A stretch of DNA of 64,000 nt, taken from assembly GCF_020103725.1 (NCBI RefSeq), contig NZ_JAHXBG010000030.1:36337-100336 (forward strand), written 5' to 3'. This document shows, piece by piece, positions 18,267 to 44,831 of the stretch. Positions within the stretch are counted from its first letter, which is position 1. Every line of letters begins with the position of its first letter. A program made the translations under genes and the position numbers. The notes beneath the pieces are model-generated. The model ran no database searches, had not been told where the DNA came from, and saw only the letters and a program-made list of their open reading frames with translations. Origin of the DNA: Hyalangium gracile (GTDB lineage: Bacteria; Myxococcota; Myxococcia; Myxococcales; Myxococcaceae).

Positions 18267-18270
<4 letters not shown>

Positions 18271-24805: not shown

Positions 24806-25555
24806 TCAGATCTGCGCCGAGCCGCCATCGGCGAACAGCTCGACGCCGTTGATGAAGCTGCTGTCGTCCGAGGCGAGGAAGGACACCACCTTGGCGATCT
24901 CGTCCGGCTGACCCAGCCGCCCCAGGGGAATGGTGGACAGCAGCTGGGCCTTGAGCTGCGCCTTCTGCTCCGGCGTCTTCGCCAGCGAGTCGAGTCCCGG
25001 GGTGTCGATCGGCCCGGGGCTGACGACGTTGACGCGGAGCTTTCGCTCCTTCAGCTCGAGGATCCACGAGCGGGCGAAGGATCGCACGGCGGCCTTGGTC
25101 GCGGCGTACACGCTGAAGGCCGCGACGCCCTTGATGGAGACGTTCGAGGCATTGAGGATGATCGAGCCGCCCTCGCGCAGCAGCGGGAGCGCCTTCTGCA
25201 CGGTGAAGACCACCCCCTTCACGTTGCTGTCGAAGGTGGCGTCGAAGTGCTCCTCGGTGATGTCGCTCAGCGGGAGGAACTCGCCGCCGCCGGCGTTGGT
25301 GAAGAGGATGTCGATGTGCCCGGCCTCCCGCTTCACCGTGGCGTACAGCCGGTCCAGATCGGCGAGCTTGGAGGTGTCGCCCTGCACGCCGATGGCGTTC
25401 TTTCCAATCCGCTTCACCGCCGCGTCCAGCTCGCCCTGACGCCGGCCCGTGATGAACACCCGCGCTCCCTCGTTGGCCAGGCGCTGTGCCGCGGCGAAGC
25501 CGATGCCCGAGGTACCACCCGTGACGACAGCCACCTTCCCTTGGTGCTTGCTCAT
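24806..25555 (-). CDS. SDR family oxidoreductase
   Basis: TGGTSGIG Rossmann motif and NAG...Y-x3-K catalytic signature. Confidence 0.85.
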
Positions 25556-25618
25556 GACCTTCCGTCCTTTCGACCGCCGAGCCCGGCTTGCCTTCGCTTC
25601 CGCCCGGCTCTACATCTA

Positions 25619-25670
25619 TTGATGACGGTCACCATCATTGGTTGCGGCTCTTTAATGATGACCGTCATTT
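25619..25670. promoter_or_regulatory. two related imperfect palindromes (TGATGAC-G-GTCAcCATCA and ATGAC-C-GTCAT) in the SDR/TetR divergent intergenic region; candidate TetR operators
   Basis: Inverted repeats read directly from the sequence, located between the divergent genes. Confidence 0.4.
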
Positions 25671-25719
25671 TAGTTGTCAACCGAACCTGCTCCGCTCTCG
25701 GGCGGAAGGAGGAGGAACG

Positions 25720-26313
25720 ATGCGACTCACCCAGGAGCAGGCGGCGGAGAACCGCCGGAAGATCCTCGAGACCGCGGGGCGGCTCTTTCGGGAGCGCGGG
25801 TTCGATGGAGTGGGGGTCGCGGACCTGATGAAGGCCGCGGGCTTCACGCACGGGGGCTTCTACAACCACTTCCCGTCCAAGCAGGCGCTGGCCGCGGAGG
25901 CCTGCTCGGGAGCCTTCGAGCGATCGGCCTCGAAGCTGGCGTGTGAGCTCGAGCAGGCACCGGCCCGCGCCTGGAGGGACTTCCTGGAGCACTACCTCTC
26001 ACCCGAGCACCGCGATGATCCCGGGCAGGGGTGTACCCTTGCCGCGCTGGCGGCCGACGCGGGGCGGCAGGGCAAGGAGGTCCAGGAGAGCTTCTCCGAG
26101 GGGCTCGAGAAGGTCTTCGCGCTGGCCCAGGAGCACCTGTCCACGGCGGCTCCCGACAAGCGCAAGGGGACGGAGGCCTCGACGCGCGAGCGCGCCATCC
26201 AGATGATGAGCGAGGTGGTGGGCGCGGTGGTACTGGCCCGCGCGGTGGCCGAGGCCGACCCGGAGCTCTCCGACGAGATCCTCGAGGCGAGCCGGCGCAA
26301 GTTCCTCAAATGA
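25720..26313 (+). CDS. TetR family transcriptional regulator
   Basis: N-terminal TetR HTH (GFDGVGVADLMKAAGFTHGGFYNHF); RBS GGAAGGAGGAGG upstream of the ATG; divergent from the SDR gene. Confidence 0.85.
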   Translation: MRLTQEQAAENRRKILETAGRLFRERGFDGVGVADLMKAAGFTHGGFYNHFPSKQALAAEACSGAFERSASKLACELEQAPARAWRDFLEHYLSPEHRDDPGQGCTLAALAADAGRQGKEVQESFSEGLEKVFALAQEHLSTAAPDKRKGTEASTRERAIQMMSEVVGAVVLARAVAEADPELSDEILEASRRKFLK

Positions 26314-26343: not shown

Positions 26344-27888
26344 TTGACCCCCAGTATCGCCGAACCAACGCGGCGTGTCATGATGATCCCCGCAGCCGTG
26401 ATGCGGAGGATCTCGATGAGAAGGATGCTCGTCCCGGGGCTGTTCGACGACTATGCCGTCGCGCCCGGGACCTTCGATGAGCTGTTCGAGGCCAGTGGTA
26501 CCGCCCGCTCCCACTTCCTCCGCATGTTCGCCATGCTGGCGGGGCGCAGCGCCGAGGAGTTCGCCCGCATCCAGGCGCTGGCCGAGCGGGCCCTGCTGAA
26601 CCAGGGCGTCACCTTCTCGGTGTACTCGGACTCGCGGGGCACCGAGAAGATCTTCCCCTTCTGCCTCATCCCCCGCATCGTCTCGAGCGTGGACTGGATG
26701 CGTCTGGAGCGCGGGCTGGAGCAGCGCACCCGGGCGCTGGGCCTCTTCCTGGATGACGTCTACGGCCCGCAGCGGATGCTCGCGGAGCGGCCCGAGCTGC
26801 GAGACATCGTCCTGGGCACGAAGCTGTACCTGCCCCAGCTGCGCCACGTGCGGCCCCCAGGCGGCGTGCGCATCCACGTGGCGGGCATCGATCTCATCCG
26901 GGACGAGCGCGGCACCTTCCGGGTGCTCGAGGACAACCTGCGCACCCCGTCGGGTGTCTCCTACGTGATGGAGAACCGCATCATCTCCAAGCGGGTGATG
27001 CCGGAGATCTTCGAGCAGGCGCGGATCCGCCAGGTGGACCACTACCCCGCGCGGCTGGCGGAGACGCTGCGCGCCGTCTCGCCCGAGGATCCCGAGCACT
27101 CCACGCTGGTGGTGCTCACGCCCGGGCCCTACAACTCCGCCTACTTCGAGCACTCGTTCCTGGCGCGCACCATGGGCGTGGAGCTGGTGCAGCCGGCCGA
27201 TCTCTTCGTGGAGCGCGATCAGGTGTTCGTGCGCACCACCCGGGGGCCGCGCCGCGTGCACGTCATCTACCGGCGCATCGATGACGCCTTCCTGGATCCC
27301 GAGGCCTTCCGCCCGGACAGCCTGCTGGGCGTGCGCGGGCTGATGCGGGCGTACGCCGCGGGCAACGTGGCGCTGGCCAACGCGCCGGGCAACGGGGTGG
27401 CGGACGACAAGGCCGTGTACGCCTTCGTGCCGGAGATGATCCGCTTCTACCTCTCCGAGGAGCCGCTGCTGGAGCAGGTGCCCACCTACGTCTGCGCGCG
27501 CAGGCAGGAGCGCGACTACGTGGTGGATCACCTGGAGCAACTGGTGGTGAAGGCGGTGGACGAGGCCGGTGGCTACGGGATGCTGATGGGCCCGCAGTCC
27601 ACGCCCGAGGCGCGCGAGGAGTTCCGCGCCCGCATCCTCGCCGAGCCGCGCAAGTACGTGGCCCAGCCGCGTGTGGAGCTGTCCACCTGTCCCACGTGGG
27701 ACGCGGGGAAGGGCAGGGTGGCGCCGCGCCGGGTGGATCTGCGGCCCTACATCCTCACCGGGCCGCAGGGCCCGTGGGTGCTCCCCGGCGGGCTGAGCCG
27801 GGTGGCGCTGCGCGAGGGCTCATACGTCGTGAACTCCAGCCAGGGGGGTGGCTCGAAGGACACCTGGGTGCAGCGGGAGGTCGCATGA
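26344..27888 (+). CDS. circularly permuted type-2 ATP-grasp protein (COG2308/DUF404 family)
   Basis: Family-typical sequence (VTFSVYSD...FPFCLIPRIV; NAPGNGVADDKAVYAFVPEMIRFYL). Confidence 0.8.
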   Translation: MTPSIAEPTRRVMMIPAAVMRRISMRRMLVPGLFDDYAVAPGTFDELFEASGTARSHFLRMFAMLAGRSAEEFARIQALAERALLNQGVTFSVYSDSRGTEKIFPFCLIPRIVSSVDWMRLERGLEQRTRALGLFLDDVYGPQRMLAERPELRDIVLGTKLYLPQLRHVRPPGGVRIHVAGIDLIRDERGTFRVLEDNLRTPSGVSYVMENRIISKRVMPEIFEQARIRQVDHYPARLAETLRAVSPEDPEHSTLVVLTPGPYNSAYFEHSFLARTMGVELVQPADLFVERDQVFVRTTRGPRRVHVIYRRIDDAFLDPEAFRPDSLLGVRGLMRAYAAGNVALANAPGNGVADDKAVYAFVPEMIRFYLSEEPLLEQVPTYVCARRQERDYVVDHLEQLVVKAVDEAGGYGMLMGPQSTPEAREEFRARILAEPRKYVAQPRVELSTCPTWDAGKGRVAPRRVDLRPYILTGPQGPWVLPGGLSRVALREGSYVVNSSQGGGSKDTWVQREVA

Positions 27889-28868
27889 TCGCGCGAGTGG
27901 CGGAGCTTTGCTTCTGGCTCGGGCGCTACCTGGAGCGCGCCGAGAGCACGGCCCGGGTGCTCCAGGTGACGGGGACGCTGGCGCTGGATGCGGGGCTGGC
28001 CCCCGAGCAGTGCTGGCGGCCGGTGCTGGCCGTCTTCGGCGAGCGGCTGCGCTTCGCCTCGCGAGGCGCCAGCGCGGCCGAGGACGACGGCGAGCAGGTC
28101 CAGCGCTTCATGGTCTGGGATGAGGACAACCCCTCCAGCATCCAGGCCTCGGTGGCCGCGGCCCGGGAGAACGCGCGCGCCATCCGCGAGGTGGTGAGCA
28201 TCGAGTGCTGGGAGGTCATCAACGAGCTGTTCCTGTGGATGCGCGGCGAGGAGGCGAAGGAGGAGTACGCCCACCACCGCTACGGCTTCTACCGGCACGT
28301 CCGCCGCTCGGTGCAGCTGTGCCTGGGGCTGTTGCGCAGCACCATGCTGCACGACACGCCCCTGGACTTCATCTGGACGGGCGTGCTGCTGGAGCGGGCG
28401 GGGCAGACGGCGCGCGTGCTGGATGTGCACCACCACGCCTTCTCGCAGCTTCCGAGCGGCCACCAGGTGGTGGAGACGTCGCTCTGGCTCTCGCTGCTGC
28501 GGGCGTGCTCGGGCTTCGAGCCCTTCATGAAGCGCCACCAGGGCCGCGTCACGGGCAACGCGGTGGCGGCGTTCCTGCTCTTCGAGCAGGAGTTCCCGCG
28601 CTCGCTGCGCTACTGCCTGAAGTCGGCCCACAAGTACCTGATCGAGTTCCACCCGCCTGGCACGCAGGGGCTGCCCGGCGCCGAGACGGTGGCCCTGAGC
28701 ACGCGGCTGCTGGAGCGGCTCCAGCCGACGGCGCTCTCGGCTCCCGGAGCCACCGTGCACGGGCTGCTCACACAGGTGGTCGAGGACACCGGCGCGCTCT
28801 GTGACATTCTGGCCGCTGAGTTCTTCGGGGCGGCAAGAGCGCTGGGCTCACAGGCGATGGCCCAGTAG
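27885..28868 (+). CDS. alpha-E domain protein (COG2307/DUF403 family)
   Basis: MIARVAELCFWLGRYLERAE N-terminus typical of the alpha-E family; ATGA overlap with the upstream ATP-grasp gene. Confidence 0.75.
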   Translation: MIARVAELCFWLGRYLERAESTARVLQVTGTLALDAGLAPEQCWRPVLAVFGERLRFASRGASAAEDDGEQVQRFMVWDEDNPSSIQASVAAARENARAIREVVSIECWEVINELFLWMRGEEAKEEYAHHRYGFYRHVRRSVQLCLGLLRSTMLHDTPLDFIWTGVLLERAGQTARVLDVHHHAFSQLPSGHQVVETSLWLSLLRACSGFEPFMKRHQGRVTGNAVAAFLLFEQEFPRSLRYCLKSAHKYLIEFHPPGTQGLPGAETVALSTRLLERLQPTALSAPGATVHGLLTQVVEDTGALCDILAAEFFGAARALGSQAMAQ

Positions 28869-28880
28869 AGTCCCGCGGCC

Positions 28881-30641
28881 ATGCCCAACCTCCTCGCCAT
28901 GTCCTTCGAGGGAGAGCTCGCGCCCAGCCTGGACCTGCGGTGCCTGGCTCCCGGCAACAAGCCTCCGGACGGCTGGGGCGTGGGCTACTACCCGGGCAGC
29001 GAGCCCGCCGCGGCGGTGCTCAAGGAGCCTCGGCCGCCTCCGGGGGGCAGCATCCGCAGCGAGCTGGTGAAGGCCTGGGAGCACCTGGAGTCCTCCCTGC
29101 TCCTGCTGCACATCCGCACGGCGAGCTGGGGCGCCATCACCGACGCCAACACCCAGCCGTTCTGCCGCAGCTACGCGGGGCGGGACTGGCTGTTCGGACA
29201 CAGCGGCACCCTGCGTCAGGCCGTGCAGCTGCCCGTGGACCCGGCCTTCGAGCCGGTGGGCTCCAGCGACTCGGAGAGCGTCTTCTGCGCGCTGCTGAGC
29301 TGGATCCAGGCCTCTGGCTGGAAGCGGCTGGGAGACGTGGATCTGGAGCGCCTGCGGGCCTGGCTCGAGGAGATGAACGGCCTGGGGCCGCTCACCGTGG
29401 TCTTCACGGACGGACACGATCTCTGCATCTACGCGGACCGGGAGCAGTCCACGAAGGCGTGGATGTGGCGGGTGGCGCCGCCCTACGAGCGGCTGGTCAT
29501 CGGCGATGACGACGTCGAGGTGGACCTGACGAAGCGCGGGGCCAAGAGCCGCAAGGGCGTCATCTTCAGCACCCAGCCCATCGAGTCCCGCACGGCGGAG
29601 GTGAAGGCGAACTGGACGCCCATCGTCCCCGGAGGGCTGGTGATGGTGCGGCAGGGCGCCATCCGCGCCGAGGTGCTGCCGCCTGGCGTGAAGCGCGAGC
29701 CGGGTAAGGACACCAGCACCGCCGCCGAGCTGGCCGCGCGCGGCACCCTGAGGCGGCCTCCCGTCGCGCCGGTGCGAGTCATGGACGTGCGGCACCGCAC
29801 GGTCTACCGCTACGAGCGGCCCGTGGAGCGCAGCGCCCACGTGCTTCGGCTGACGCCGGTGCATGACCGGCTGCAGAGCCTGCGCTCGCACGAGCTGCGG
29901 ATGTCGCCGGGGGTGCTGCAGAGCGAGTACGAGGACGTCTTCGGCAACCATGTGCGCAAGGCGCTCATCGAGACGCCCTACACGGAGCTGGTCATCGAGG
30001 CGAACTCGCGGGTGGAGCTGCGGGACACGGATCCGCTCGGCCACCGCGCGCCCCACATCCGCACGACGTTCCCGGTGCTGTGGATGCCGTCGCAGCAGGT
30101 GATGCTCCAGCCGTACCTCCAGCCGCCGCCGCTGCCGGACAGCGAGCTGGAGGAGCTGCTCGAGTACGCGATGAGCTTCGCGCGCCGCAACGACTTCGAT
30201 CTGCTGGACACGCTGCTGGACCTCAACTTCAGCATCTACAAGGAGTACCAGTACATCCAGGGGGTGACGCACCTGAACACGTCGGCGTTCGAGGTGTACT
30301 CGGCGCGGCGCGGCGTGTGCCAGGACTTCACCAACCTGTTCCTGTGCCTGGCGCGGCTGCTGGGGCTGCCGGCGCGCTACACCTGCGGCTACATCTATAC
30401 GGGCCCCAAGCACGCCAACACGCAGCAGGCGGAGGCCTCGCACGCGTGGGCGCAGGTGTACCTGCCCGAGCGAGGCTGGAGGGGCTTCGATCCCACCAAC
30501 GGCGTGCTCACGCAGACGAACCACGTGCGCGTGGCCACGGGGCGGACGCACCGGGACGCGACGCCCACCTCGGGCACCATCTACGTGGGCGGCAGCATCG
30601 AGCGGCTCGAGGTCACGGTCGTCTGCGAGCCCGTCGAGTAG
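28881..30641 (+). CDS. fusion protein: class-II glutamine amidotransferase-like (YafJ-like) domain, bacterial transglutaminase N-terminal domain, and transglutaminase-like core
   Basis: N-terminus MPNLLAMS...DGWGVGYY...HIRTASWG...NTQPF resembles YafJ/GATase_6 but has Pro where the Ntn nucleophile Cys should be. The middle region is VRHRTVYRYERP. The C-terminal transglutaminase core has Cys/His/Asp (RRGVCQDF...SHAWAQVY...FDPTNG). Confidence 0.8.
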   Translation: MPNLLAMSFEGELAPSLDLRCLAPGNKPPDGWGVGYYPGSEPAAAVLKEPRPPPGGSIRSELVKAWEHLESSLLLLHIRTASWGAITDANTQPFCRSYAGRDWLFGHSGTLRQAVQLPVDPAFEPVGSSDSESVFCALLSWIQASGWKRLGDVDLERLRAWLEEMNGLGPLTVVFTDGHDLCIYADREQSTKAWMWRVAPPYERLVIGDDDVEVDLTKRGAKSRKGVIFSTQPIESRTAEVKANWTPIVPGGLVMVRQGAIRAEVLPPGVKREPGKDTSTAAELAARGTLRRPPVAPVRVMDVRHRTVYRYERPVERSAHVLRLTPVHDRLQSLRSHELRMSPGVLQSEYEDVFGNHVRKALIETPYTELVIEANSRVELRDTDPLGHRAPHIRTTFPVLWMPSQQVMLQPYLQPPPLPDSELEELLEYAMSFARRNDFDLLDTLLDLNFSIYKEYQYIQGVTHLNTSAFEVYSARRGVCQDFTNLFLCLARLLGLPARYTCGYIYTGPKHANTQQAEASHAWAQVYLPERGWRGFDPTNGVLTQTNHVRVATGRTHRDATPTSGTIYVGGSIERLEVTVVCEPVE

Positions 30642-30902
30642 CCGTCGCGCGAGGTGCTCCAGGATGGAGCAACCTGGCTCAGTCTGGAGCAGGCGAGAGA
30701 TCCAAACTGGGCGGGAATTCCTCCGTTTTCGAGCGGCTCCCGTCTGAAACGGCGTGGGCACGCGGCTGGCATTGAGGGGCGGTGAACTCTCACCGAGCAG
30801 GTATCCCTGTGCCCCCCCTCGAACAACAGCAGCGAAGCCATCCAGCGCATCTCCCTGAAGAACCGCGAGTACGCTTACATCGAGGACGCGAACCGCGGCG
30901 TC

Positions 30903-33098
30903 GTGCTGGTGGAGATCGGCCCCAAGGTCCTGACGCTGGAGGCCCACCTCACGCTCGTGACCAAGAGCCGGATGATCGAGCTGGGCACGGGCAGCTGGTG
31001 CGTCGTGCGCAACCCGGTGGTGCGCGAGGGTGGCAAGGTGTCGCTCGACGACTTCGGCCAGGCCCGCATCGCCGTGGGCGATCGCGAGGTCCGCGTCGGT
31101 CCCCAGGTGTTCCCGCTCTACCCGGGCGAGGAGCTGGAGGGAGAGATCACCCCCGAGTACGTGCTCGGCGTCTACGACGCGCTGCGCCTGCGGGCCCTCA
31201 CGGCCTTCAGCGATGAGCGGGCTCCGGGTGGGCCGCGCACGCGCGAGGCCGGTGACGAGTGGCTGGTCCGAGGGCCCGGACGCTACGTGCCCAGCGCGGC
31301 GGTGATCGTCGTCTCCGCGGAGAAGGCGCGCGTCCTCAAGGAGACGGAGTACTGCGTCGTGCTGAACCCGGTGGACCGGACCACGGGGAAGATCCAGGAG
31401 GGCCGCCGCAAGGTCATCTCCGGCCCGGACGTCTTCTTCCTGGAGCCGGGCGAGGCGCTGGAGGGAGACGTCCGCCGCAAGCACGTGCTGTCCGAGATGC
31501 AGGGGCTCAAGCTCCAGGCGCTCGATGACTTCTCCGAGACGGAGGAGGGCGGGGAGCTTCGGACGCGCAAGGCGGGTGACACCTGGATCGTCCGGGGCCC
31601 GCGGACCTACGTGCCCAACGAGCGGGTGCTGATCCACAAGGAGATCGTCGCGCTCTCGCTGGGGCAGGGCGAGGGCCTGTACGTGAGGGATCTGCGCTCC
31701 GGCAAGGTGTCGCTGGTCCAGGGCCCGTGCCAGTTCATGCCCGAGGCCCACCAGGAGCTGCACGAGAAGCGGCTCTCTGCCGACGCCGAGGCGCTGCTGG
31801 GGCTGGCTCCGGCGCAGCAGGGCGCGCACCTGGCCGCCGTGGATGGGAAGGACGCCAAGGCGCCACGCCCGGCAGCCGCGTCCGCGGAGCGGATCGACCG
31901 CACGCGAGCCATCGTCCTGCGCATCGAGGACAACACGGCGGTGCTGATCAACGACTTCGAGACCAACCACGCCCGGGTGGAGTTCGGCCCGGCGAAGGTG
32001 ATGCTGCGCCCGTACGAGGACGTGACGGTGCTGGATCTGTCCGGCGGGACGCCCAAGCGCCCCAGGCAGCTCAAGGTGCTCATGCTGCGGCTGGGGCCGG
32101 ACTTCGCCACGGACTTGTTCGAGGTGGCGACGAGGGATCACGCCCGGCTGCGCATCAAGCTCTCGTACAAGTGGCAGTTCGACGTGGAGGGGGACTCGGA
32201 GAAGGACAAGGCCATCTTCCGGGTGAACGACTTCATCGGGTACGTGTGCGAGAACCTCGCGTCGCGCATCCGCCAGGTGGCGGCGGAGAACGACTTCGAG
32301 ACGTTCCACAAGAACGCGAGCGTGCTCATCCGCCGGGCCATCTTCGGCGTGGATGAGGCCGGCAAGGCGCGCAAGGATCGGCTGTTCTCCGAGAACCAGC
32401 TGCGCATCATCGACATCGACATCAAGGACATCGCTCCGGTCGATGACAAGACGGCGCTCAAGCTGCGCGAGGCCATCGACACGAACATCCAGATCCAGCT
32501 GGATGCCTCGAAGCAGGAGGCGCAGGCGTCGGCGGAGCTCAAGCGCATCCGGAGCGAGGAGGAGAAGCAGCTGGCGGACATCTCCAGCCACCGGAAGTCG
32601 GAGGCCGAGCGGCAGTCGCTCATCGAGCTGCAGAACAAGAACCACCAGCTGGCCACGCTGAGCCACGCCAAGGTGGAGGCGGAGGCGCAGCTCGAGAAGG
32701 CTCGGGTGGAGAGCGAGGAGGCGCTGGCCCGCGCGGAGGCAGAGGCCCGGGCGTCCCGCATCCGCACCGAGGCGGAGCTGGAGCGCGAGCGGCTGATGAG
32801 CGAGGTGGCGCTGGAGCGGCAGAAGCGGATGAACGATCTCGAGGTGGACCGGCAGGCGCGGCTCGCCGCGGTGGAGGCCGATCAGTTCCGCAAGCGAGTG
32901 GAGGCGCTCGGGGGCGGAGAGAACTTCGTCAAGGCGGTGGCGGCCCAGGCGCAGGCGGCGGTCGTCGGCGGGCTGGACAAGGTGGTGTTCCTGCCCACTG
33001 GCTCCAACCTCAACCTCTTCGACTCCATGCAGGGGCTGCTGGGGCCTGGGAGCCGCAACGCCCTCGCGGCGGACAAGGGCGCCGGCGGTACGAACTGA
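30903..33098 (+). CDS. major vault protein (MVP) homolog
   Basis: Repeated MVP-repeat modules (FPLYPGEELEGEITP; REAGDEWLVRGPGRYVP; RKAGDTWIVRGPRTYVP); shoulder-domain match (LGPDFATDLFEVATRDHARLRIKLSYKWQFDV compared with eukaryotic LGPDFFTD...DHARLQLQLAYNWHF); coiled-coil cap-helix region. The GTG at 30903 is the first canonical in-frame start, but conserved N-terminal residues are encoded upstream of it, back to the stop codon at 30783. Confidence 0.8.
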   Translation: MLVEIGPKVLTLEAHLTLVTKSRMIELGTGSWCVVRNPVVREGGKVSLDDFGQARIAVGDREVRVGPQVFPLYPGEELEGEITPEYVLGVYDALRLRALTAFSDERAPGGPRTREAGDEWLVRGPGRYVPSAAVIVVSAEKARVLKETEYCVVLNPVDRTTGKIQEGRRKVISGPDVFFLEPGEALEGDVRRKHVLSEMQGLKLQALDDFSETEEGGELRTRKAGDTWIVRGPRTYVPNERVLIHKEIVALSLGQGEGLYVRDLRSGKVSLVQGPCQFMPEAHQELHEKRLSADAEALLGLAPAQQGAHLAAVDGKDAKAPRPAAASAERIDRTRAIVLRIEDNTAVLINDFETNHARVEFGPAKVMLRPYEDVTVLDLSGGTPKRPRQLKVLMLRLGPDFATDLFEVATRDHARLRIKLSYKWQFDVEGDSEKDKAIFRVNDFIGYVCENLASRIRQVAAENDFETFHKNASVLIRRAIFGVDEAGKARKDRLFSENQLRIIDIDIKDIAPVDDKTALKLREAIDTNIQIQLDASKQEAQASAELKRIRSEEEKQLADISSHRKSEAERQSLIELQNKNHQLATLSHAKVEAEAQLEKARVESEEALARAEAEARASRIRTEAELERERLMSEVALERQKRMNDLEVDRQARLAAVEADQFRKRVEALGGGENFVKAVAAQAQAAVVGGLDKVVFLPTGSNLNLFDSMQGLLGPGSRNALAADKGAGGTN

Positions 33099-33195: not shown

Positions 33196-33603
33196 ATGGC
33201 CATCGCAGAAGTCCACGTACGCATCGGGAAGCTGCTCGCCGCCATCGACGAGCTGCTGGAGACGTCCTCCACCGACATCCGGCTGATCGAGCGGGTGGTC
33301 GATCTGGCTCGCTGGTCGAAGCTCTACATCGACCTGGAGCTGGCCTATAAGCCCTACCGGGACGTCCGGGATGCCGAGTGGACGACGCGGAAGTTCACCA
33401 CGGAGGAGAGTGCGCGAAAGCTCCTCGTGGAGTTCCGCGACACGCTTCGCGACGTGGAGGCGTCGACGACCGGCCACGTCGAGCAGCGCAACCTGCGAGC
33501 GCGAGTCGAGGGCGTGCTGAACGTCACGCAGGAGTGGTGGAAGCAGTCGGCCGAGAAGAAGCAGGGGAGCGCTACCGGGGCAGGCGGGACTCGACCTGCT
33601 TGA
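33196..33603 (+). CDS. hypothetical protein
   Basis: 135 aa ORF; no recognisable domain; its start is embedded in the right arm of an inverted repeat. Confidence 0.4.
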   Translation: MAIAEVHVRIGKLLAAIDELLETSSTDIRLIERVVDLARWSKLYIDLELAYKPYRDVRDAEWTTRKFTTEESARKLLVEFRDTLRDVEASTTGHVEQRNLRARVEGVLNVTQEWWKQSAEKKQGSATGAGGTRPA

Positions 33604-34753
33604 GGTGGCGCTGTGCCTGGGTGAGAGCCTTCTCCGTGGCCTGGGCCTGCTGCTCCACGCGCGAGACCTCCTCCGCCTGGGCGCGTTCAGCCTCCACAGC
33701 CGCCGCCAGCGTCTCGCGAGCCTGACGGGCCTGCTCCTCCGCGGTCTCGAGCGCCTCACGGGCGCGCCGAGCTCGGGCCTCCGCGGCTTCGAGGGCACCG
33801 CGTGCGTAGCGGCTCTTCGCCTCCGCGGTCCTGAGCACGGCCTTCGTGCGCACCACCTCCTGGCGTGAGAGCCGCTCGGCTCGCTGGGCCTCCGCTGCCT
33901 GCTGTCTGGCGTCCCGCCGGAGCTGTCGGAGCTCCACCTCGCGCTCGCGGCGCGTCTCGGCCCTGGCCTCGTCACGGAGCTGGCGCTTGGAGGGGCGGGG
34001 CGGAGATGCCGGCCGCTTCGGTGGTGGCGGCGGACGCGCTGGGGCTTTCTCCTCGCGAACACGAGGCGTCCAGGGGCCATGCAGCACCTTGCCGCCGGCG
34101 GGAGTCGAAGGCTCCACGGACTTCGCCGGGCGCTGACTCGGGGGCGGCTTTGCGGGTCTGCGAGGGGCGCGCTCCGGCAGCGGGCCGACGAGCTCCAGGG
34201 CCGAGAAATCCCCGAACCCTCCCGAGCTTCGCAGCGGCCGCGTCAACATGCCCTGAGTCAGCATGGTTCGCTCCTCTTCCGAGCCGAGGGAGGCGGTGCG
34301 CAGCGTCTCGTCGACCTGGCGGATGAGCTCGCCCGAGGGTGGGCGGCCCGTGGCGGCCAGCGAGTCGTTGACGTCCTTCATCAAGGCATCGAGTGCCCGC
34401 TGGAAGGCGCGGTTGGCCTCCTTGAGCGGCTCCGCCGCCAGCCCGGACATGGCCCGGCGCTGAGCCTTCTCGAGGTCACGGGCGGCGGAGAGGAGCTCCT
34501 CGATGTGATCCGGGTGCTGGTGGGCCAGCTGATTGACGACCCAGGCGGTGACGACGGGGCGCTTGAGCTTGCGAATGGCCTGCGCGTCCTTGGATTGACC
34601 CTTTGACGCGAGTTCCTTGGCGAGAGCGTCGCGGGCCCGGGTGAAGTCCGAGAGGGGCAGGGCGTAGAGCTCCCGCTGCCGAGCCAGGAGTTCGGCTCCG
34701 TTACTCCCCCGCTTGCCCCCCGATCGAGGGGGCGCTTTCGAGTGAGAAGCCAC
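33572..34753 (-). CDS. hypothetical protein (Pro-rich centre, C-terminal Arg/Glu/Ala coiled coil)
   Basis: 393 aa ORF with plausible codon usage; no recognisable catalytic domain. Confidence 0.5.
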   Translation of the reverse strand: MASHSKAPPRSGGKRGSNGAELLARQRELYALPLSDFTRARDALAKELASKGQSKDAQAIRKLKRPVVTAWVVNQLAHQHPDHIEELLSAARDLEKAQRRAMSGLAAEPLKEANRAFQRALDALMKDVNDSLAATGRPPSGELIRQVDETLRTASLGSEEERTMLTQGMLTRPLRSSGGFGDFSALELVGPLPERAPRRPAKPPPSQRPAKSVEPSTPAGGKVLHGPWTPRVREEKAPARPPPPPKRPASPPRPSKRQLRDEARAETRREREVELRQLRRDARQQAAEAQRAERLSRQEVVRTKAVLRTAEAKSRYARGALEAAEARARRAREALETAEEQARQARETLAAAVEAERAQAEEVSRVEQQAQATEKALTQAQRHLKQVESRLPR

Positions 34754-39462: not shown

Positions 39463-41496
39463 TCAGGAGGCGCTGCGCTGGGAGCCCGCTCCCGAGGACG
39501 GAGCGGGGGCACGGCGCGCCTCGAGGTAGCGGCGCAGGGGCGTGAGCAGGCGCTCCGCCTCGCCGGCCTCGAGGGGGCGCTGGCCAAAGCGGGCCTCCAG
39601 GTAGCGGCGGGTGACGGGCGCCAGGGGCTCGGCCAGGGAGTGGTGCTCGCGGACGAGGCGGGCGGTGAGGTCCTCCAGCGTCTCGCCCTCATGGGGGCGC
39701 ACGCCGGCCTCGCGCAGCATGCGCTCCACCGTGTCCACCAGCCGGGTGGCCGTGTGGGGCCTGGGCGCGGACAGCCGCGCCGCGAGGAAGCGCCACGTGC
39801 CGTAGGTGACGAGGCCCGCCAGCAGCGCCACGCCCCAGACGCGCGCCGGCGGCAGCCGGGTGGAGGAGCGGCCCGAGTCTCGCGGCGGGCGGATGAACCT
39901 CTGCGCCACATCCATCTGGTCTCGCAGGGAGAAGTCGACGACGGCGGAGCGCCAGTGCGACTCGAGCGTCTCGTACAGGCCGGTGAGGAGCTGGAGCGCG
40001 GCCATGGACTGGCTGGCCCGGTTGCCCGGAGGCGTCGCGTCCACGGTGACGAAGCCCCGGTCCGGCACCAGCACGTGCGTCCAGGCGTGGGCGTCTCCGG
40101 CCCGGAGGATGTAGTCCTCGTCCGAGCGCTCTCCGCCGAAGAAGCCCGAGGCCAGGCGCGCCGAGAAGCCCTGGGTGCGCAGCATGAGGGTGAGCGCGGT
40201 GGCGAAGTGCTCGCAGTGGCCCGCCTTGCGCACGAAGAGGAAGTCGGCGAGCGGATCCTCCACGTCCCCCTGCAGCTCCAGGGTGTACGCGTACTCGCGC
40301 TGCAGCCAGCTGGAGAGCTTGCGCGCGGCGGCCAGCGGCTCCTTCTCTCCGTCGAGCACCGTGCGGGCCAGCTCCGCCACGCGGGGATCCAGCCGGTCCG
40401 GCAGCGCCAGGAGCTGGCCGAGCTCCGCCTCCGTCATCTTCGTGGAGGCGTCCTCCTCCGGCGGAAGGCTGGTGGCCTCGTAGGAGTAGCCCAGGCCGGC
40501 ATCCACGAAGCGCACCTCTCCGCCGCCCAGCTCCATCAGCGAGGTGCGCCGGTTGCCGCTGGCGGTGTGCGCCACCGCGTTGCCCATGCGCGTGGGCGTC
40601 TCCAGCGCCACCAGGGTGCGGGCGCCGTACGCGGGCAGCAGCTCGATGCGCTGGTGGAGCGAGCTCTCCCCACCGGGCCGCAGCGTCACCCGCTGGCGCG
40701 AGCGCTTGGGGCCGCCGACGCTCGTCCACTCCTGGCCGTCGAAGGTGTCGTAGGTGCGAGCCACCCAGTACGAGCCGAGCTGATCCACGCCGGGATCCGG
40801 GGTGATGTGGGCGCGCAGCACCACGCGCGGGTTGCTCTTGAGCGTGCCGGCGCCGCCCAGCCGCACCGTGTCCGACAGGCCGGTGGTGGCTCCCAGGCCC
40901 GGCGAGGCGCGCCGCGCGGCCACGTTCCAGTTGAGGCGCGGGAAGAGGATGAAGAAGGCCACCGCGCCGCTCACCGCGAAGAGCAGGCCCACCGAGAGCG
41001 GCCGCACCACCGAGCGCACCGGCAGCGGCTCGCCCTCGGGGACGGCGGCCTCCACCACCGCCAGCCCCATGGAGAGGCTGGCGAAGACGCAGAAGGCCAC
41101 CAGGAAGACGGCGAAGATCAGCTCGCCGGAGAGCGCCGCGCCGCCCGCCACCATCAGCAGGCCGGCCAGCTGCACCTGGCCATCCGTCCGGGCCTCCGGC
41201 GTGGACAGCATCCGGTGGCCGGCGATGAGGCCCGCGAACGAGCACGCGGCCACCACCAGATCCAGCTGCCCCACATACACGGAGAAGCCGAGCAGGCCGG
41301 CCATGCCCAGCAGCAGCACCGCGGTGGCCTTCGCGCGCTTGGCGAACACGCGCCAGCCCAGCAGCGCGAACACCAGGGACAGGGCGAAGGCGGCGACCGT
41401 CCATACCGGGAGCTGGCCGGACACGACCATGGAGCCGAAGGCCGCTCCGGCGCCGAGATCGCGCAGGGCCAGCCGCAGGCGGGAGGGCGCGCTCAT
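39463..41496 (-). CDS. transglutaminase-like domain membrane protein (DUF3488/TGase/DUF4129 type)
   Basis: N-terminal multi-TM region; TGase core (GHCEHFATAL...DAHAWTHV...VDATP). ATGA overlap with the upstream DUF58 gene. Confidence 0.8.
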   Translation of the reverse strand: MSAPSRLRLALRDLGAGAAFGSMVVSGQLPVWTVAAFALSLVFALLGWRVFAKRAKATAVLLLGMAGLLGFSVYVGQLDLVVAACSFAGLIAGHRMLSTPEARTDGQVQLAGLLMVAGGAALSGELIFAVFLVAFCVFASLSMGLAVVEAAVPEGEPLPVRSVVRPLSVGLLFAVSGAVAFFILFPRLNWNVAARRASPGLGATTGLSDTVRLGGAGTLKSNPRVVLRAHITPDPGVDQLGSYWVARTYDTFDGQEWTSVGGPKRSRQRVTLRPGGESSLHQRIELLPAYGARTLVALETPTRMGNAVAHTASGNRRTSLMELGGGEVRFVDAGLGYSYEATSLPPEEDASTKMTEAELGQLLALPDRLDPRVAELARTVLDGEKEPLAAARKLSSWLQREYAYTLELQGDVEDPLADFLFVRKAGHCEHFATALTLMLRTQGFSARLASGFFGGERSDEDYILRAGDAHAWTHVLVPDRGFVTVDATPPGNRASQSMAALQLLTGLYETLESHWRSAVVDFSLRDQMDVAQRFIRPPRDSGRSSTRLPPARVWGVALLAGLVTYGTWRFLAARLSAPRPHTATRLVDTVERMLREAGVRPHEGETLEDLTARLVREHHSLAEPLAPVTRRYLEARFGQRPLEAGEAERLLTPLRRYLEARRAPAPSSGAGSQRSAS

Positions 41497-42578
41497 GCCG
41501 CCTCCTCCTTCTGGCGCTCCTCGCGCAGCTCCTCGAAGCCCACCCAGGCCAGGGCCCGCAGGATGTTGCGCTCCTGCACATGGCCCGAGGCGGGGCGCAG
41601 GCGCTCGGTGGGCGTCTCCAGCCCCACCTCGTGACCGGCCTCGAGCAGCTGGTGGGAGAGGGCGGCCACCTCCTCGCAGCGCCGCTCCAGGGCCGCGTCC
41701 TCGAGGCCGGCGTCCACGGAGAGCTGATAGGTGCGGCGCTCCTCGCGCTCGCGCTCCACCTTGATCAGCTTCCCCATGGCGGCGCTCTTGCGCCAGTGCA
41801 CGCGCCGAGCGTCCTCGGTGGGGCCCAGCTCGCGCAGGCCGGCCACGTCCCCGGTGCCATCGTTGCGGCGCGGGGTGCTCGAGTCGCCGAAGGCGCCCTG
41901 GAGCGCCTCCGTGGGCACGTGGCAGGCGTAGCCGCGCCGGGGATAGACGAGCAGGATGCCCTCCAGCTCGAAGACGCGCGTCTTGGCGAAGAGGCCCAGC
42001 GGCCACGTGGTGGTGACGCGCACGCCGCTCAGCCGCAGCGGCCCTCGCTGGGGCGTGGTGAGGTCCGCGCGCACCACGTGCTCCACGCCCGAGCGCAGGT
42101 AGCCCACGCGCCCCTCGCCCGTGAGCGGCGTGTCCACCTCGGCCAGGGTGAGGGCGAAGGCGTGGCCCTGCTTGCGGGTGATGGCCCAGCGGTAGGCGAA
42201 GGGCTCGCCGGCGAAGGCGGACTCGGTGCCCAGGCGGCGCACGCTCAGGTGGCGCAGGCAGCGCTCGGAGAGCACGCCGGACACCACCACCATGGACAGC
42301 AGCAGGCCCAGCACCAGGTAGAGCAGGTTGTTGCCCGTGTTGAGCGCGCCCAGCCCCACGCCGAACGTCACCACCAGGTACGTGCGCCCCGTGCGCGTCA
42401 CCTTCAAGGTGCGCGGAGGGCGCAGCAGGACGCGCAGCCGCGCCCAGGAGGATGAGGCCTTCGCCTTCACCGCGGCGCCGCCACCTTGCGGGAGAGCTCC
42501 TCGAGCAGGTGCGAGGCCTCCTCCCGGGCCGCGGCTCCCTGCACGTTGCTGCGCAGCATCAGCCGGTGCGCCAGGCAC
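41493..42578 (-). CDS. DUF58 family protein (vWA-like, MoxR-associated); start uncertain, probably near 42480
   Basis: LNTGNNLLYLVLGLLL TM hairpin followed by the DUF58 region. The track ORF overlaps the MoxR gene, so the true start is probably later. Confidence 0.7.
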   Translation of the reverse strand: MPGAPADAAQQRAGSRGPGGGLAPARGALPQGGGAAVKAKASSSWARLRVLLRPPRTLKVTRTGRTYLVVTFGVGLGALNTGNNLLYLVLGLLLSMVVVSGVLSERCLRHLSVRRLGTESAFAGEPFAYRWAITRKQGHAFALTLAEVDTPLTGEGRVGYLRSGVEHVVRADLTTPQRGPLRLSGVRVTTTWPLGLFAKTRVFELEGILLVYPRRGYACHVPTEALQGAFGDSSTPRRNDGTGDVAGLRELGPTEDARRVHWRKSAAMGKLIKVEREREERRTYQLSVDAGLEDAALERRCEEVAALSHQLLEAGHEVGLETPTERLRPASGHVQERNILRALAWVGFEELREERQKEEAA

Positions 42579-43447
42579 GGCACCAGCACCGCCCGCACAT
42601 CCCCCGGCGTCACGAAGTCACGCCCCTCCCACAGGGCATGGGCCCGCGCCGCCGCTCCCACCGCCAGCACCGCGCGGGTGGAGGCGCCACGCTCGATGTC
42701 CCCGTGCTCGCGCGTCGCCTTGGCCAGCCGCACCACGTACTCCGCCACGGCCGCGTCCATCCGCAGCTCCGAGGCGAGCCCCCGCAGGCCGAGCAGCTCC
42801 TCGGGCCCCGTCACCGGCTCCAGCTCCTCCACCGGCGGCGTCCGCCCGCGGGTGATGAGCAGCCGTGCCTCCACCTCCGGCGACGGGTGGCCCAGCGACA
42901 GGCGCATGAGGAAGCGATCCAGCTGCGAGTCCGGCAGCGGGTATGTGCCGGTGAGATCCAGCGGGTTCTGCGTGGCCACCACCGTGAAGGGGGAGGGCAG
43001 CGGATGGGTGTTGCCGTCCAGCGACACCTGGCCCTGGGCCATGCCCTCCAGCAGCGCGGACTGGGTGCGCGGCGGAGCGCGGTTGAGCTCGTCGGCCAGC
43101 ACGAGCTGCCGGAAGATGGGGCCCTGTCGGAAGCTGAACGTCGCGCTGGAGGCGTGGAACACCTGCGCGCCCAGGATATCGGCGGGCATCAGGTCCGCGG
43201 TGAACTGGATGCGCGCGAAGCTCAGCCCGCACGAGCGCGCCAGCGCCTCGGCCAGCGTCGTCTTTCCGACACCAGGCACGTCCTCCAGCAGGAGGTGGCC
43301 TCCGGCGATCAGGCTGGTGACGGTGAGGCGGGCTTGCGTCTCCTTGCCCTGCACCACGCGCGAGAGGTGGGCGGCGATCCGCTCCAGGATCGAGCGCGCG
43401 GAGGAGACAGTGGGTGCGGAGACGAGTGCGCGGGCGGGTTGGTTCAT
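42467..43447 (-). CDS. MoxR-family AAA+ ATPase
   Basis: GVPGVGKTTLAEALA Walker A; DELNRAPPRTQSALLE Walker B/sensor region. Start at MNQPARAL. Confidence 0.85.
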   Translation of the reverse strand: MNQPARALVSAPTVSSARSILERIAAHLSRVVQGKETQARLTVTSLIAGGHLLLEDVPGVGKTTLAEALARSCGLSFARIQFTADLMPADILGAQVFHASSATFSFRQGPIFRQLVLADELNRAPPRTQSALLEGMAQGQVSLDGNTHPLPSPFTVVATQNPLDLTGTYPLPDSQLDRFLMRLSLGHPSPEVEARLLITRGRTPPVEELEPVTGPEELLGLRGLASELRMDAAVAEYVVRLAKATREHGDIERGASTRAVLAVGAAARAHALWEGRDFVTPGDVRAVLVPCLAHRLMLRSNVQGAAAREEASHLLEELSRKVAAPR

Positions 43448-43541
43448 CTGTCCGCGCAGTCTACCCGAGGCGTCCCCTCGGCGGGGCGCCATGCCGGGCA
43501 GCGGGGCCTTCAGGCCCGCTCGCTGCCCGGGCGAGCGACTC

Positions 43542-44090: not shown

Positions 44091-44831
44091 TCAGCCCTGG
44101 GTCTGGTTCGTCTGCTGCTGAGCACGCAGGGTGAGCTCGCGCTCCTGGCGCTCCTTGAGCTTACGGAACTCGCGGACGACCTTGGTCGGGTAGCCGGCGA
44201 TGAACTTCTTCCGGACATCGCGCTTGGCGAGGATCTTCTTCGCCATGCCCGGCCCCGCGTTGTAGGCCACCAGGGCGTGCTCCAGCGAGCCGAAGCGCTC
44301 GATGAGGTTGGCCAGGTACGCGGTGCCCAGCTCGATGTTGGTCTCCGCGTCGAAGAGGTTGGTGGAGCGGCCCAGCCGGAAGCCGGCCTTGTCCGCCAGG
44401 TAGGTGCCCGTGTCCGGCATCACCTGCATCAGCCCCATGGCGCCCACGTGAGACACCGCGTAGTTGTTGAACGAGCTCTCGCAGCGGATGAGCGCGATCA
44501 CCAGCATGGGGTCCACGTTGTTGCGCTGGGCCTCGCGGATGATGGCCACCGCCACGCGGCGCTGCTGGCGCACCGGCAGCCCCGAGGCCTTCACCGCATC
44601 CGTCACGCCCAGGCGCACCGCCTCCTGGTAGTGGGCCTCGTCCTGGTACTCCTGCAGCCGCGTCTGCGCCTCCTTCAGCGCCGCCTCCCGCTCGGCCAGC
44701 AGCACGCGCAGCTCCGCGAGCTCCGGCGACTCCACCACCGACCCCTCCGGGAGCTGGAACGGGAAGCTGGGGACCGCCGCCGCCCCCGTCAACAACCCCA
44801 CCGCCGCTACCGCCACCATCCACCGCCTCAT
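44091..44831 (-). CDS. lytic transglycosylase domain protein (MltE/Slt-like)
   Basis: Signal peptide; SLT catalytic motif (ESSFNNYAVSHVGAMGLMQV...AYNAGPG). Confidence 0.8.
   Translation of the reverse strand: MRRWMVAVAAVGLLTGAAAVPSFPFQLPEGSVVESPELAELRVLLAEREAALKEAQTRLQEYQDEAHYQEAVRLGVTDAVKASGLPVRQQRRVAVAIIREAQRNNVDPMLVIALIRCESSFNNYAVSHVGAMGLMQVMPDTGTYLADKAGFRLGRSTNLFDAETNIELGTAYLANLIERFGSLEHALVAYNAGPGMAKKILAKRDVRKKFIAGYPTKVVREFRKLKERQERELTLRAQQQTNQTQG

What the first reader, a model, noticed from the sequence alone, without database searches (positions are those of the whole stretch)
30903..33098. Full-length major vault protein homolog in a bacterial chromosome
The sequence encodes an about 730 aa protein with MVP-type repeats (FPLYPGEELEGEITP; R-x-AGD-x-W-L/I-VRGP-x-x-YVP, at least twice). 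It also has a shoulder-domain match (LGPDFATD...DHARLRIKLSYKWQF, compared with eukaryotic LGPDFFTD...DHARLQLQLAYNWHF) and a long coiled-coil cap-helix. MVP is the shell protein of eukaryotic vault ribonucleoprotein particles. A bacterial copy with conserved architecture raises the possibility of a vault-like proteinaceous compartment. It may have arrived by lateral transfer.
Basis: partly seen in the sequence, partly recalled or inferred. Interest (0 to 1): 0.85.

Follow-up and report, generated by a model that had tools for sequence, protein, structure and literature searches.

The report
Known bacterial major vault protein, short form
This is a genuine bacterial relative of the protein that builds eukaryotic "vault" particles, but orthologs in closely related myxobacteria were already described in 2013, so it is a confirmed and still uncharacterised gene, not a discovery.

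Summary
The ORF at 30903..33098 (+) is real and is a major vault protein (MVP) homolog. All five MVP Pfam families score above their cut-offs (shoulder 2e-45). Rat and human MVP chains match at about 1e-135, and the AlphaFold model matches only solved vaults, followed by SPFH cage proteins.

The gene is native to a Hyalangium-like myxobacterium. GC3 is 0.95, it is syntenic with H. versicolor, and dN/dS is 0.08-0.16.

It is not new. Orthologs at 84-88% identity in Corallococcus and Melittangium are in the literature (2013, 2019, 2023), and some sources already name them "major vault protein".

Three refinements:
1. It has 7 repeats, not 9. The R4-R5 equivalents are missing, as in a whole short-form bacterial clade that splits with 100% bootstrap from cyanobacteria plus eukaryotes. 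Recent transfer from a eukaryote is therefore not supported.
2. The real start is a conserved GTG at 30809. Here a C7 run, where relatives have six bases (C6 in the closest), puts it out of frame.
3. A sigma-54-type -24/-12 element is conserved upstream, and no partner gene is conserved nearby.

Cage assembly is plausible but untested.

The parts
30757..30771 (+). Sigma-54-type -24/-12 promoter element GGCACGCGGCTGGCA (GG-N10-GC)
   Evidence: It fits the consensus TGGCACG-N4-TTGC(T/A) quoted in PMC9765219, where characterised M. xanthus promoters also use TCGC at -12. The block GGCA[CT]G-N4-T[CG]GCA is present at a fixed distance upstream of the MVP start in 21 of 22 myxobacterial loci, and L011 carries a variant. 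All 21 strict occurrences in 942 kb of those loci, both strands, are at this position. The single match in the window is not significant by count alone. No sigma-70-like site was found.
30795..30802 (+). Conserved Shine-Dalgarno-like GAGCAGGT, 6-7 nt upstream of the GTG at 30809
   Evidence: Nearly invariant in alignment A2 and in the upstream survey. It is positioned for a start at 30807-30809, not at 30903.
30809..30818 (+). Conserved GTG start codon (30809-30811) followed by a C7 run (30812-30818). Relatives have six bases here (two Pro codons; CCCCCC in the closest ones), so the start is +1 out of frame with the MVP frame
   Evidence: Sequence read. All relatives read GTG/ATG + CC[CT]CC[CTG] + TCG in frame. 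The only in-frame alternative here is CTG at 30807, and the in-frame stop is TGA at 30783-30785.
30819..30902 (+). N-terminal 28 codons of MVP (SNNSSEAIQRISLKNREYAYIEDANRGV), the first strands of repeat R1, missed by the 30903 ORF call
   Evidence: Identical in amino acids to the Hyalangium homolog P0001. Against H. versicolor there are 6 synonymous and 0 nonsynonymous differences. The model gives strands E10-13, E17-23 and E28-33 at pLDDT about 90.
30903..33098 (+). The ORF as listed from the first ATG/GTG/TTG (731 aa), including the stop codon
30819..32093 (+). Array of seven MVP beta-repeat domains, equivalent to R1, R2, R3, R6, R7, R8 and R9. Approximate boundaries in nt: 30989/30990, 31172/31173, 31343/31344, 31496/31497, 31667/31668, 31910/31911. 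The two-repeat gap relative to 9-repeat MVPs falls near 31340
   Evidence: Pfam Vault_2 x2, Vault x2, Vault_4 and Vault_3. The AlphaFold model shows seven beta modules at pLDDT about 90. There is a single clean 108-residue gap against reference residues 167-274, and occupancy of the R4/R5 bins is 0.00/0.09.
32094..32444 (+). MVP shoulder (SPFH-like) domain
   Evidence: PF11978 at 2.1e-45, covering the full profile 1-118. After the MVPs, Foldseek hits are HflK/C, flotillin, prohibitin, stomatin and erlin cages.
32445..32966 (+). Cap-helix: one continuous predicted helix of 154 residues (543-696 in 759-residue numbering) plus a short helix at 700-716
   Evidence: DSSP on the model. It aligns without gaps to the eukaryotic cap-helix, occupancy 1.00. 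The rat alignment runs through this region.
32967..33095 (+). C-terminal tail, equivalent to the cap-ring, predicted disordered
   Evidence: pLDDT is below 50 for residues 713-759. It aligns to the eukaryotic C-terminus, including the conserved NLF motif.

Best explanation
This is a bona fide member of the major vault protein family, the short 7-repeat form native to Myxococcaceae.

Gene structure. The gene is solitary. Its real coding sequence runs from a conserved GTG at 30809 to 33098. In this sequence one extra C in a poly-C run just after the start codon puts that start out of frame. This is either a homopolymer sequencing error or a very recent mutation.

Regulation. The gene is most likely transcribed from its own sigma-54-dependent promoter. 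Expression would then depend on an enhancer-binding protein and so be conditional.

Mechanism (inferred). The roughly 760-aa protein would associate side by side through its 154-residue cap-helix and SPFH-like shoulder into a cytoplasmic vault-like shell. That shell would be shorter than the eukaryotic one by two repeat tiers per half. It would lack the PARP4 docking surface and would work without TEP1, vPARP or vault RNA.

What is shown and what is inferred. Shown here: family membership, domain architecture, native status, purifying selection, the conserved promoter-like element, and the absence of conserved neighbours. Inferred: shell assembly, sigma-54 dependence, and any cargo or physiological role.
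For: Family and fold:
- Pfam MVP domains score above their cut-offs.
- PDB MVP chains match at E about 1e-135.
- The AlphaFold model has repeats at pLDDT about 90 and a single 154-residue cap helix.
- Top Foldseek hits are exclusively rabbit, human and rat vaults.

Native status and function:
- GC1/2/3 is 0.71/0.42/0.95, like the neighbouring genes.
- The region is fully syntenic with H. versicolor.
- Orthologs occur in 20+ Hyalangium, Archangium, Vitiosangium, Corallococcus and Melittangium genomes, including complete chromosomes.
- dN/dS is 0.08-0.16.

Architecture: a clean two-repeat gap is shared by all 14 short-form sequences. It removes human MVP residues R169, Q172 and D214, which contact the PARP4 MINT domain.

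Start codon.

Promoter.

Solitary gene: no flanking gene family is shared across genera or among 54 cyanobacterial/Chloroflexi loci.
Against: - No experiment shows that any bacterial MVP forms a particle. The held literature has only in-silico studies, and the PDB has only mammalian vaults.
- Residues that mammals use at the waist (R9, D39, N40, R42) are mostly not conserved, judged from my reading of the and alignments. Pairing of two halves is therefore not predictable.
- The NAD+/ADP-ribose pocket is only partly conserved. K506, R507, P508, D521, F522 and W545 are kept; R504, H509, R511, L517, P565 and K573 are changed.
- If the extra C is real, this strain may make no normal MVP.
- The sigma-54 reading rests on sequence conservation only.
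- Shoulder pLDDT is moderate, 60-85.
Confidence: 0.6

Rival explanations
1. The protein is a real MVP homolog but does not build closed vaults. It would form open half-shells, rings or SPFH-like scaffolds, or act as a soluble oligomer, with a role unrelated to compartmentalisation.
For: The shoulder is an SPFH fold, and after the MVPs the nearest structural relatives are the HflK/C, flotillin and prohibitin cages. Mammalian waist-contact residues are mostly not conserved. Two repeats are missing. No cargo or partner gene is linked.
Against: The cap-helix matches the eukaryotic one in length and aligns without gaps. R1 is present and conserved within the clade. The protein has no transmembrane segment or signal peptide with which to act as a membrane SPFH scaffold, as seen directly in the sequence. 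Eukaryotic MVP alone is sufficient to form vaults, as reconstituted MVP-only particles show.
Confidence: 0.22
2. In this particular genome the gene is inactivated or crippled. The C7 insertion would be genuine, so translation from the conserved GTG ends in a 144-codon nonsense frame. Only a rare CTG start at 30807, or the internal GTG at 30903, could give MVP, and the latter product would lack the first strands of R1.
For: The C7 run, against six bases in every relative. The out-of-frame ORF 30782..31216. No good Shine-Dalgarno sequence ahead of 30903.
Against: The rest of the 2.3-kb frame is intact, with dN/dS of 0.08 against the closest relative. The 28 upstream codons carry only synonymous changes. 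Any inactivation would therefore be extremely recent. Homopolymer length errors are a common sequencing artefact (my own knowledge). CTG at 30807 is in frame and correctly spaced from the SD-like element.
Confidence: 0.15
3. The gene is a recent lateral acquisition from a eukaryote, or eukaryotic contamination in the assembly.
For: MVP is best known from eukaryotes, and the window protein is 34-38% identical to animal and protist MVPs.
Against: The myxobacterial clade lies outside the group of cyanobacteria/Chloroflexi plus eukaryotes with 100% bootstrap. Cyanobacterial MVPs are 48-56% identical to eukaryotic ones, whereas this protein is 34-39% identical to either. GC3 of 0.95 matches the flanking myxobacterial genes. 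The gene has conserved bacterial promoter and SD elements and is syntenic in H. versicolor. Branching within the clade is compatible with taxonomy. The 7-repeat architecture was not seen in any eukaryotic sequence examined.
Confidence: 0.02

Closest known systems
Myxobacterial MVP homologs already in the literature: a Corallococcus coralloides MVP (UniProt H8MNI3 in Daly et al. [quoted passage not shown] Also Sokolskyi 2019 (10.1101/872010)
   Same: Same orthologous group. The window protein is 86% identical to C. coralloides proteins (P0023, L016) and 88% to M. boletus (P0020), with the same length class of 753-766 aa and the same Pfam architecture. I did not retrieve H8MNI3 itself, so its identity with these C. 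coralloides entries is assumed, not tested. Those papers already call these proteins MVP homologs, model them as MVP-like, and place them as a sister group to the cyanobacterial-plus-eukaryotic clade.
   Different: A different genus (Hyalangium-like). The held papers do not mention the 7-repeat architecture, the conserved sigma-54-type element or the lack of conserved neighbours. This copy has the C7 frameshift at its start.
Eukaryotic major vault protein (rat, human and rabbit vault shell; PDB 4V60, 4HL8, 9BW5, 9Z4W)
   Same: The same domain order: beta repeats, SPFH-like shoulder, a cap-helix of about 155 residues, and a C-terminal tail. E is about 1e-135, and identity is 32-39% depending on the alignment.
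   Different: It has 7 repeats rather than 9, lacking the R4-R5 equivalents that carry most of the PARP4 MINT docking site. No TEP1, vPARP or vault RNA is nearby. The nucleotide pocket is only partly conserved. Assembly has not been demonstrated.
Cyanobacterial and Chloroflexi MVPs (e.g. Moorena producens F4Y3B4, Calothrix, Laspinema)
   Same: They are bacterial, solitary MVP genes with no conserved neighbours.
   Different: They are 9-repeat, 850-900 aa proteins, 48-56% identical to eukaryotic MVPs, and group with eukaryotes. The window protein is 39.5% identical to them and sits on the other side of a 100%-bootstrap split.
SPFH/band-7 cage proteins (HflK/C, flotillin, prohibitin, stomatin, erlin)
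   Same: The shoulder domain shares the SPFH fold and is followed by a long helix that bundles into a cage or cap (Foldseek E 1e-7 to 1e-4).
   Different: Those proteins have no MVP beta-repeat array and are membrane-anchored. Identity is only 10-17%.

Membership tests
Major vault protein (MVP) family | Tandem MVP beta-repeat domains (Pfam Vault, Vault_2, Vault_3, Vault_4) | tested here: met
   All four repeat families score above their gathering cut-offs, with E from 1e-7 to 4e-34. The model shows seven beta modules at pLDDT about 90.
Major vault protein (MVP) family | MVP shoulder domain (PF11978) | tested here: met
   E 2.1e-45, 154 bits against a cut-off of 25, covering the full profile.
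Major vault protein (MVP) family | Long cap-helix of about 155 residues following the shoulder | tested here: met
   A predicted continuous helix at residues 543-696. It aligns to the eukaryotic cap-helix with occupancy 1.00. The rat boundaries 647-802 are recalled from Tanaka et al. 2009 (my own knowledge).
Major vault protein (MVP) family | Nine repeat domains R1-R9, as in the canonical eukaryotic shell protein | tested here: not met
   Only seven repeats are present. A single 108-residue gap corresponds to R4-R5. This is a clade-wide feature, not a truncation of this copy. It distinguishes a short-form subfamily and does not contradict homology.
Major vault protein (MVP) family | Self-assembly into a D39, 78-subunit hollow barrel | not testable with these tools
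   Only monomer prediction is available, and no solved bacterial vault exists in the PDB copy.
Vault ribonucleoprotein (complete eukaryotic particle) | Minor components TEP1 (TROVE/NACHT/WD40), vPARP/PARP4 and vault RNA | tested here: not met
   None of these domains occurs in any ORF scanned across the 64-kb window. There are no Rfam hits at gathering threshold. No gene family is conserved next to bacterial MVP genes. The rest of the genome could not be searched.
Vault ribonucleoprotein (complete eukaryotic particle) | PARP4 MINT-domain docking surface on R3-R5 (human Q164, R169, Q172, D214) | tested here: not met
   The block holding R169, Q172 and D214 is absent.
Vault ribonucleoprotein (complete eukaryotic particle) | NAD+/ADP-ribose pocket between adjacent shoulder domains | tested here: inconclusive
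   Six alignable pocket residues are conserved (K506, R507, P508, D521, F522, W545) and six are changed (R504T, H509R, R511L, L517R, P565N, K573E). R437 lies in an unalignable loop.
Sigma-54-dependent promoter | The -24 GG and -12 GC elements with TGGCACG-N4-TTGCW spacing, upstream of the gene | tested here: met
   GGCACG-CGGC-TGGCA at 30757-30771. It is conserved at a fixed position in 21 of 22 orthologous loci and occurs nowhere else in 942 kb. The consensus, and TCGC variants in characterised M. xanthus promoters, are in PMC9765219.
Sigma-54-dependent promoter | Dependence on RpoN and an enhancer-binding protein | not testable with these tools
   This needs expression experiments. No EBP gene is linked to the locus.

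The most novel reading that the evidence does not exclude
Myxobacteria would make a minimal, partner-free vault. The 7-repeat MVP alone would assemble into a shorter cytoplasmic cage, switched on through a sigma-54 enhancer-binding protein under a specific stress or developmental signal. This would be the first prokaryotic vault organelle. It would also be a genetically tractable system for asking what the MVP shell does without TEP1, PARP4 or vault RNA. The 7-repeat form could even be the ancestral state, from which the 9-repeat form arose by duplication of two repeats.
Probability: 0.4. Interest if true: 0.65.

Novelty: already known. Interest (0 to 1): 0.35.

Why it matters
Vault function is a 40-year-old open question. 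A solitary bacterial MVP with no TEP1, PARP4 or vault RNA offers a stripped-down system for asking what the shell alone does.

That opportunity has been visible since bacterial MVPs were reported in 2013, so this window does not add the discovery itself. It adds three practical details for anyone who takes it up:
- the myxobacterial proteins are a distinct 7-repeat short form that lacks the PARP4 docking tier;
- they appear to be under sigma-54 control, so they may be silent in standard culture and need the right inducing condition;
- automatic ORF calling in this sequence gives a truncated protein because of a homopolymer frameshift at the start.

Tried and rejected
- Conserved operon partners. 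I ran tblastn of 15 window neighbours against 79 loci and an unbiased all-against-all clustering of 2,990 flanking ORFs. Nothing is shared beyond within-genus synteny. The upstream cassette of circularly permuted ATP-grasp, Alpha-E and GATase-transglutaminase genes is absent next to MVP in L003 and L005, so it is not a partner.
- Vault RNA or other structured RNA. Rfam at gathering threshold found no hits in the window.
- TEP1, vPARP or Ro-like proteins. Pfam scans of about 45 ORFs across the window found none.
- Defence-system or phage affiliation. PADLOC and PHROGs gave no hits for MVP or its downstream neighbours.
- Sigma-70 promoter or intrinsic terminator around the gene. There is no promoter-like site and only one chance-level terminator-like site.
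- Tracing the source assembly. The exact 731-aa product is not on record, tried both with V and with M as the first residue. The frameshift therefore could not be checked against another copy.
- Naming the nearest outgroups. The intermediate-identity proteins (39-50%) are unnamed metagenomic singletons.
- Programmed frameshifting at the C-run. I rejected this because relatives encode the two prolines with varied codons (CCTCCT, CCCCCG, CCTCCC), so no slippery site is conserved.
- One Pfam call failed on a wrong frame and was repeated with corrected coordinates.
Full report
**Observation.** Five MVP-specific Pfam families match it above their curated cut-offs: MVP_shoulder 2.1e-45, Vault_2 4.2e-34 in two stretches, Vault 8.1e-31 in two stretches, Vault_3 1.4e-21 and Vault_4 9.8e-8. 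NCBIfam has no model for it. Solved rat, human and rabbit MVP chains match at E 1e-127 to 1e-135, with alignments running through the repeats, the shoulder, the cap-helix and the C-terminal NLF motif. An AlphaFold2 model built on a 50-sequence alignment has mean pLDDT 75.6, about 90 in the repeats. It shows seven beta modules, an alpha/beta shoulder and one uninterrupted 154-residue helix. Its Foldseek matches in the PDB are the mammalian vaults (E 1e-50 to 1e-41), followed at E about 1e-7 by the SPFH cages HflK/C, flotillin, prohibitin, stomatin and erlin.

**Source and native status.** The window is a 66-73% GC chromosome segment. Its genes are typical of myxobacteria: Ser/Thr kinases, CheB-like regulators, a GAF histidine kinase, SelA, a sigma-70 factor and a MoxR ATPase. 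The closest genome is Hyalangium versicolor, at 95% amino-acid identity for MVP and with full synteny over the shared region, about 10 kb upstream and 2.7 kb downstream. The MVP frame has GC1/2/3 of 0.71/0.42/0.95, like its neighbours. Orthologs at 84-93% identity occur in Hyalangium, Archangium, Vitiosangium, Melittangium and many Corallococcus genomes, including complete chromosomes. dN/dS against these is 0.08-0.16. This is a functional, vertically maintained bacterial gene and not contamination.

**True gene boundaries.** The homologs are 753-766 aa and begin MPPSNNSSEAIQRISLKNREYAYIEDANRGVV, ahead of the LVEIGPK with which the 731-aa ORF starts. In the window those residues are encoded in frame from 30819, and the in-frame stop lies at 30783. 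Every relative reads GTG or ATG, then two proline codons, then TCG. The window reads GTG (30809-30811), then seven C's (30812-30818), then TCG, which is one C too many, so the conserved start is out of frame. The 28 codons between 30819 and 30902 differ from H. versicolor by six synonymous and no nonsynonymous changes. They are therefore coding, and the defect is either a homopolymer sequencing error or very recent. The only in-frame alternative start is CTG at 30807. Relatives spell the two prolines with different codons, so a conserved slippery site for programmed frameshifting is unlikely. The exact 731-aa product is not on record in public assemblies, so I could not check another copy. A protein starting at 30903 would lack the first three predicted strands of R1, the domain that forms the waist between half-vaults in mammals.

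**Architecture.** Against a Swiss-Prot MVP (Diplobatis, P0099), the protein aligns end to end with a single large gap of 108 residues, opposite reference positions 167-274. That is exactly two 54-residue repeats. In a 41-sequence alignment, the bins for R4 and R5 are empty (0.00 and 0.09) in the window protein and in all 13 other short-form bacterial sequences (686-819 aa). Every cyanobacterial, Chloroflexi and eukaryotic sequence fills all nine bins. My bin boundaries are approximate and recalled from the rat structure. Because the repeats are homologous to one another, which two are called missing is a convention. The cap-helix aligns without gaps. In human vaults the PARP4 MINT domain docks on repeats 3-5, contacting Q164, R169, Q172 and D214 (PMC12280208). 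Three of those four residues fall in the missing block, consistent with the absence of any vPARP-like partner. The NAD+/ADP-ribose pocket described in the same paper is half conserved according to the rat alignment. K506, R507, P508, D521, F522 and W545 are kept, and R504T, H509R, R511L, L517R, P565N and K573E are changed. Nucleotide binding is therefore neither supported nor excluded.

**Phylogenetic position.** A Kimura-distance NJ tree (721 columns, 100 bootstraps) splits the sequences with 100% support into two groups. One is a short-form bacterial clade containing the Myxococcaceae. The other contains cyanobacteria, Chloroflexi and all eukaryotes. Cyanobacterial MVPs are 48-56% identical to animal, sponge and diplonemid MVPs, about as similar as eukaryotic MVPs are to each other (about 50%). 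The window protein is 34-39.5% identical to all of them. This agrees with the published trees. It argues against a recent eukaryote-to-myxobacterium transfer. An ancient transfer in either direction remains open, and NJ on this sampling cannot root the tree. An exhaustive search finds 214 clusters at 50% identity with E <= 1e-30, so the family is modest in size, and the whole Myxococcaceae group collapses into one cluster.

**Regulation and context.** The intergenic region upstream of MVP varies between genera except for two blocks. One is GGCA[CT]G-N4-T[CG]GCA, about 50 nt before the start codon. The other is GAGCAGGT, 6-8 nt before it. The first block fits the sigma-54 consensus TGGCACG-N4-TTGC(T/A). 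Experimentally characterised M. xanthus sigma-54 promoters include TCGC variants at -12 (PMC9765219). In the window the element is at 30757-30771. One such match in 64 kb is not significant in itself. Across 24 myxobacterial loci, however, the strict pattern occurs 21 times in 942 kb, and all 21 are at this position. L011 has a variant that keeps the GG-N10-GC spacing, and the divergent 67%-identity homolog L022 lacks the element. No sigma-70-like site is present. I infer a dedicated sigma-54 promoter and hence conditional, activator-dependent expression. This is not demonstrated.

Neighbouring genes are not conserved. The SDR, TetR, circularly permuted ATP-grasp, Alpha-E and GATase-transglutaminase block upstream (24.8-30.6 kb) is shared only with H. 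versicolor, and it is absent next to MVP in two other Hyalangium-type genomes. Unbiased clustering of flanking ORFs finds no family shared across genera or among 54 cyanobacterial/Chloroflexi loci. No TROVE, PARP, vWA, NACHT or WD40 protein occurs in the window. There are no Rfam families and no PADLOC or PHROG hits.

**Mechanism.** The most likely mechanism, by analogy with eukaryotic MVP, is side-by-side assembly into a hollow shell. Eukaryotic MVP alone suffices to form particles. The shoulder and a cap-helix of the same length are conserved here, and these would form a cap. Seven repeat tiers would form the wall, giving a barrel shorter than the mammalian one. I put this at about 0.55-0.6. 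Family membership I put at above 0.95, and sigma-54 control at about 0.75. Against the shell model, no bacterial vault has been seen. The held library contains only in-silico work on bacterial MVPs. Mammalian waist residues are mostly not conserved, and cargo is unknown.

**Comparison with what is known, and novelty.** Daly et al. 2013 list a Corallococcus coralloides MVP (H8MNI3), Plesiocystis and others as bacterial MVP homologs predicted to fold and dock like MVP. Sokolskyi 2019 analyses Myxococcales, Cytophagales and Oscillatoriales MVPs and reports the same two-clade tree. [quoted passage not shown] JGI and UniRef already label several of these orthologs 'major vault protein'. The finding is therefore already known. 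What I did not find in those papers is the clade-wide 7-repeat architecture with loss of the PARP4-docking tier, the conserved sigma-54-type element, and the systematic absence of conserved neighbours. These are refinements and do not amount to a new kind of system.

**Verdict.** Interest is 0.35. The biology is attractive because the gene is uncharacterised, but the discovery has already been made.

Noticed in passing
window 26344-30641 (+), with TetR at 25588-26313 and SDR at 24806-25555 (-): A cassette of a circularly permuted ATP-grasp (3e-159), an Alpha-E domain protein (5e-74) and a fused class-II glutamine amidotransferase / bacterial transglutaminase (GATase_4 + Bact_transglu_N + Transglut_core). 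It lies immediately upstream of MVP. It is present in H. versicolor (L001) but absent from the same position in L003 and L005, so it looks like an inserted block and not an MVP partner.
   Followed up: partly
window 8529-11982 (-): Three tandem paralogous CheB-like genes (response-regulator receiver plus methylesterase; 348, 349 and 374 aa), next to a GAF histidine kinase at 11992-14226 (-). The triplication is unusual.
   Followed up: no
window about 55000-64000: GC falls from about 0.70 to 0.58-0.62. The region holds large ORFs with almost no Pfam matches (55113-58220 (-), 1036 aa, only a weak TPR hit; 58305-60401 (-), 699 aa, no hit) and several small unannotated ORFs. It could be a horizontally acquired island.
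   Followed up: partly
window 33196-33603 (+) and 33572-34753 (-): Two lineage-specific genes of unknown function lie downstream of MVP and converge with a 32-nt overlap: a 135-aa protein and a 393-aa protein rich in Ala, Arg and Glu. They have no Pfam, PADLOC or PHROG hits. They are found only in some Hyalangium-type genomes (L001, L004, L005).
   Followed up: partly
window 16870-18860 (+): Selenocysteine synthase SelA (1.9e-145) is followed by a 221-aa HNH endonuclease gene whose start overlaps the end of selA.
   Followed up: no
L068, L022, L023 (related loci): Some MAG taxonomic labels look wrong. The MVP from the 'Actinomycetota' MAG L068 nests inside Nostocales cyanobacteria (98% bootstrap). 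The 'beta proteobacterium' MAG L023 carries a Hyalangium-type MVP at 94% identity with the same sigma-54 element. The 'Planctomycetota' MAG L022 carries a 67%-identity short-form MVP. These are probably binning or labelling errors.
   Followed up: partly
related loci and overall: Among the GTDB species representatives returned, the short-form MVP appears in Hyalangium, Archangium, Vitiosangium and Corallococcus (and in Melittangium in the protein database). No Myxococcus, Stigmatella or Cystobacter locus was returned. This suggests a patchy distribution within the family. The scan uses two peptide patterns and keeps only 80 loci, so absence is not proven.
   Followed up: no
window 42470-43492 (-) and 41496-42578 (-): A MoxR-type AAA_3 ATPase sits next to a 361-aa protein with no Pfam hit, possibly a MoxR/DUF58-like pair. 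Nearby are an SLT transglycosylase (44094-44891) and a HupE/UreJ protein (45878-46939).
   Followed up: no
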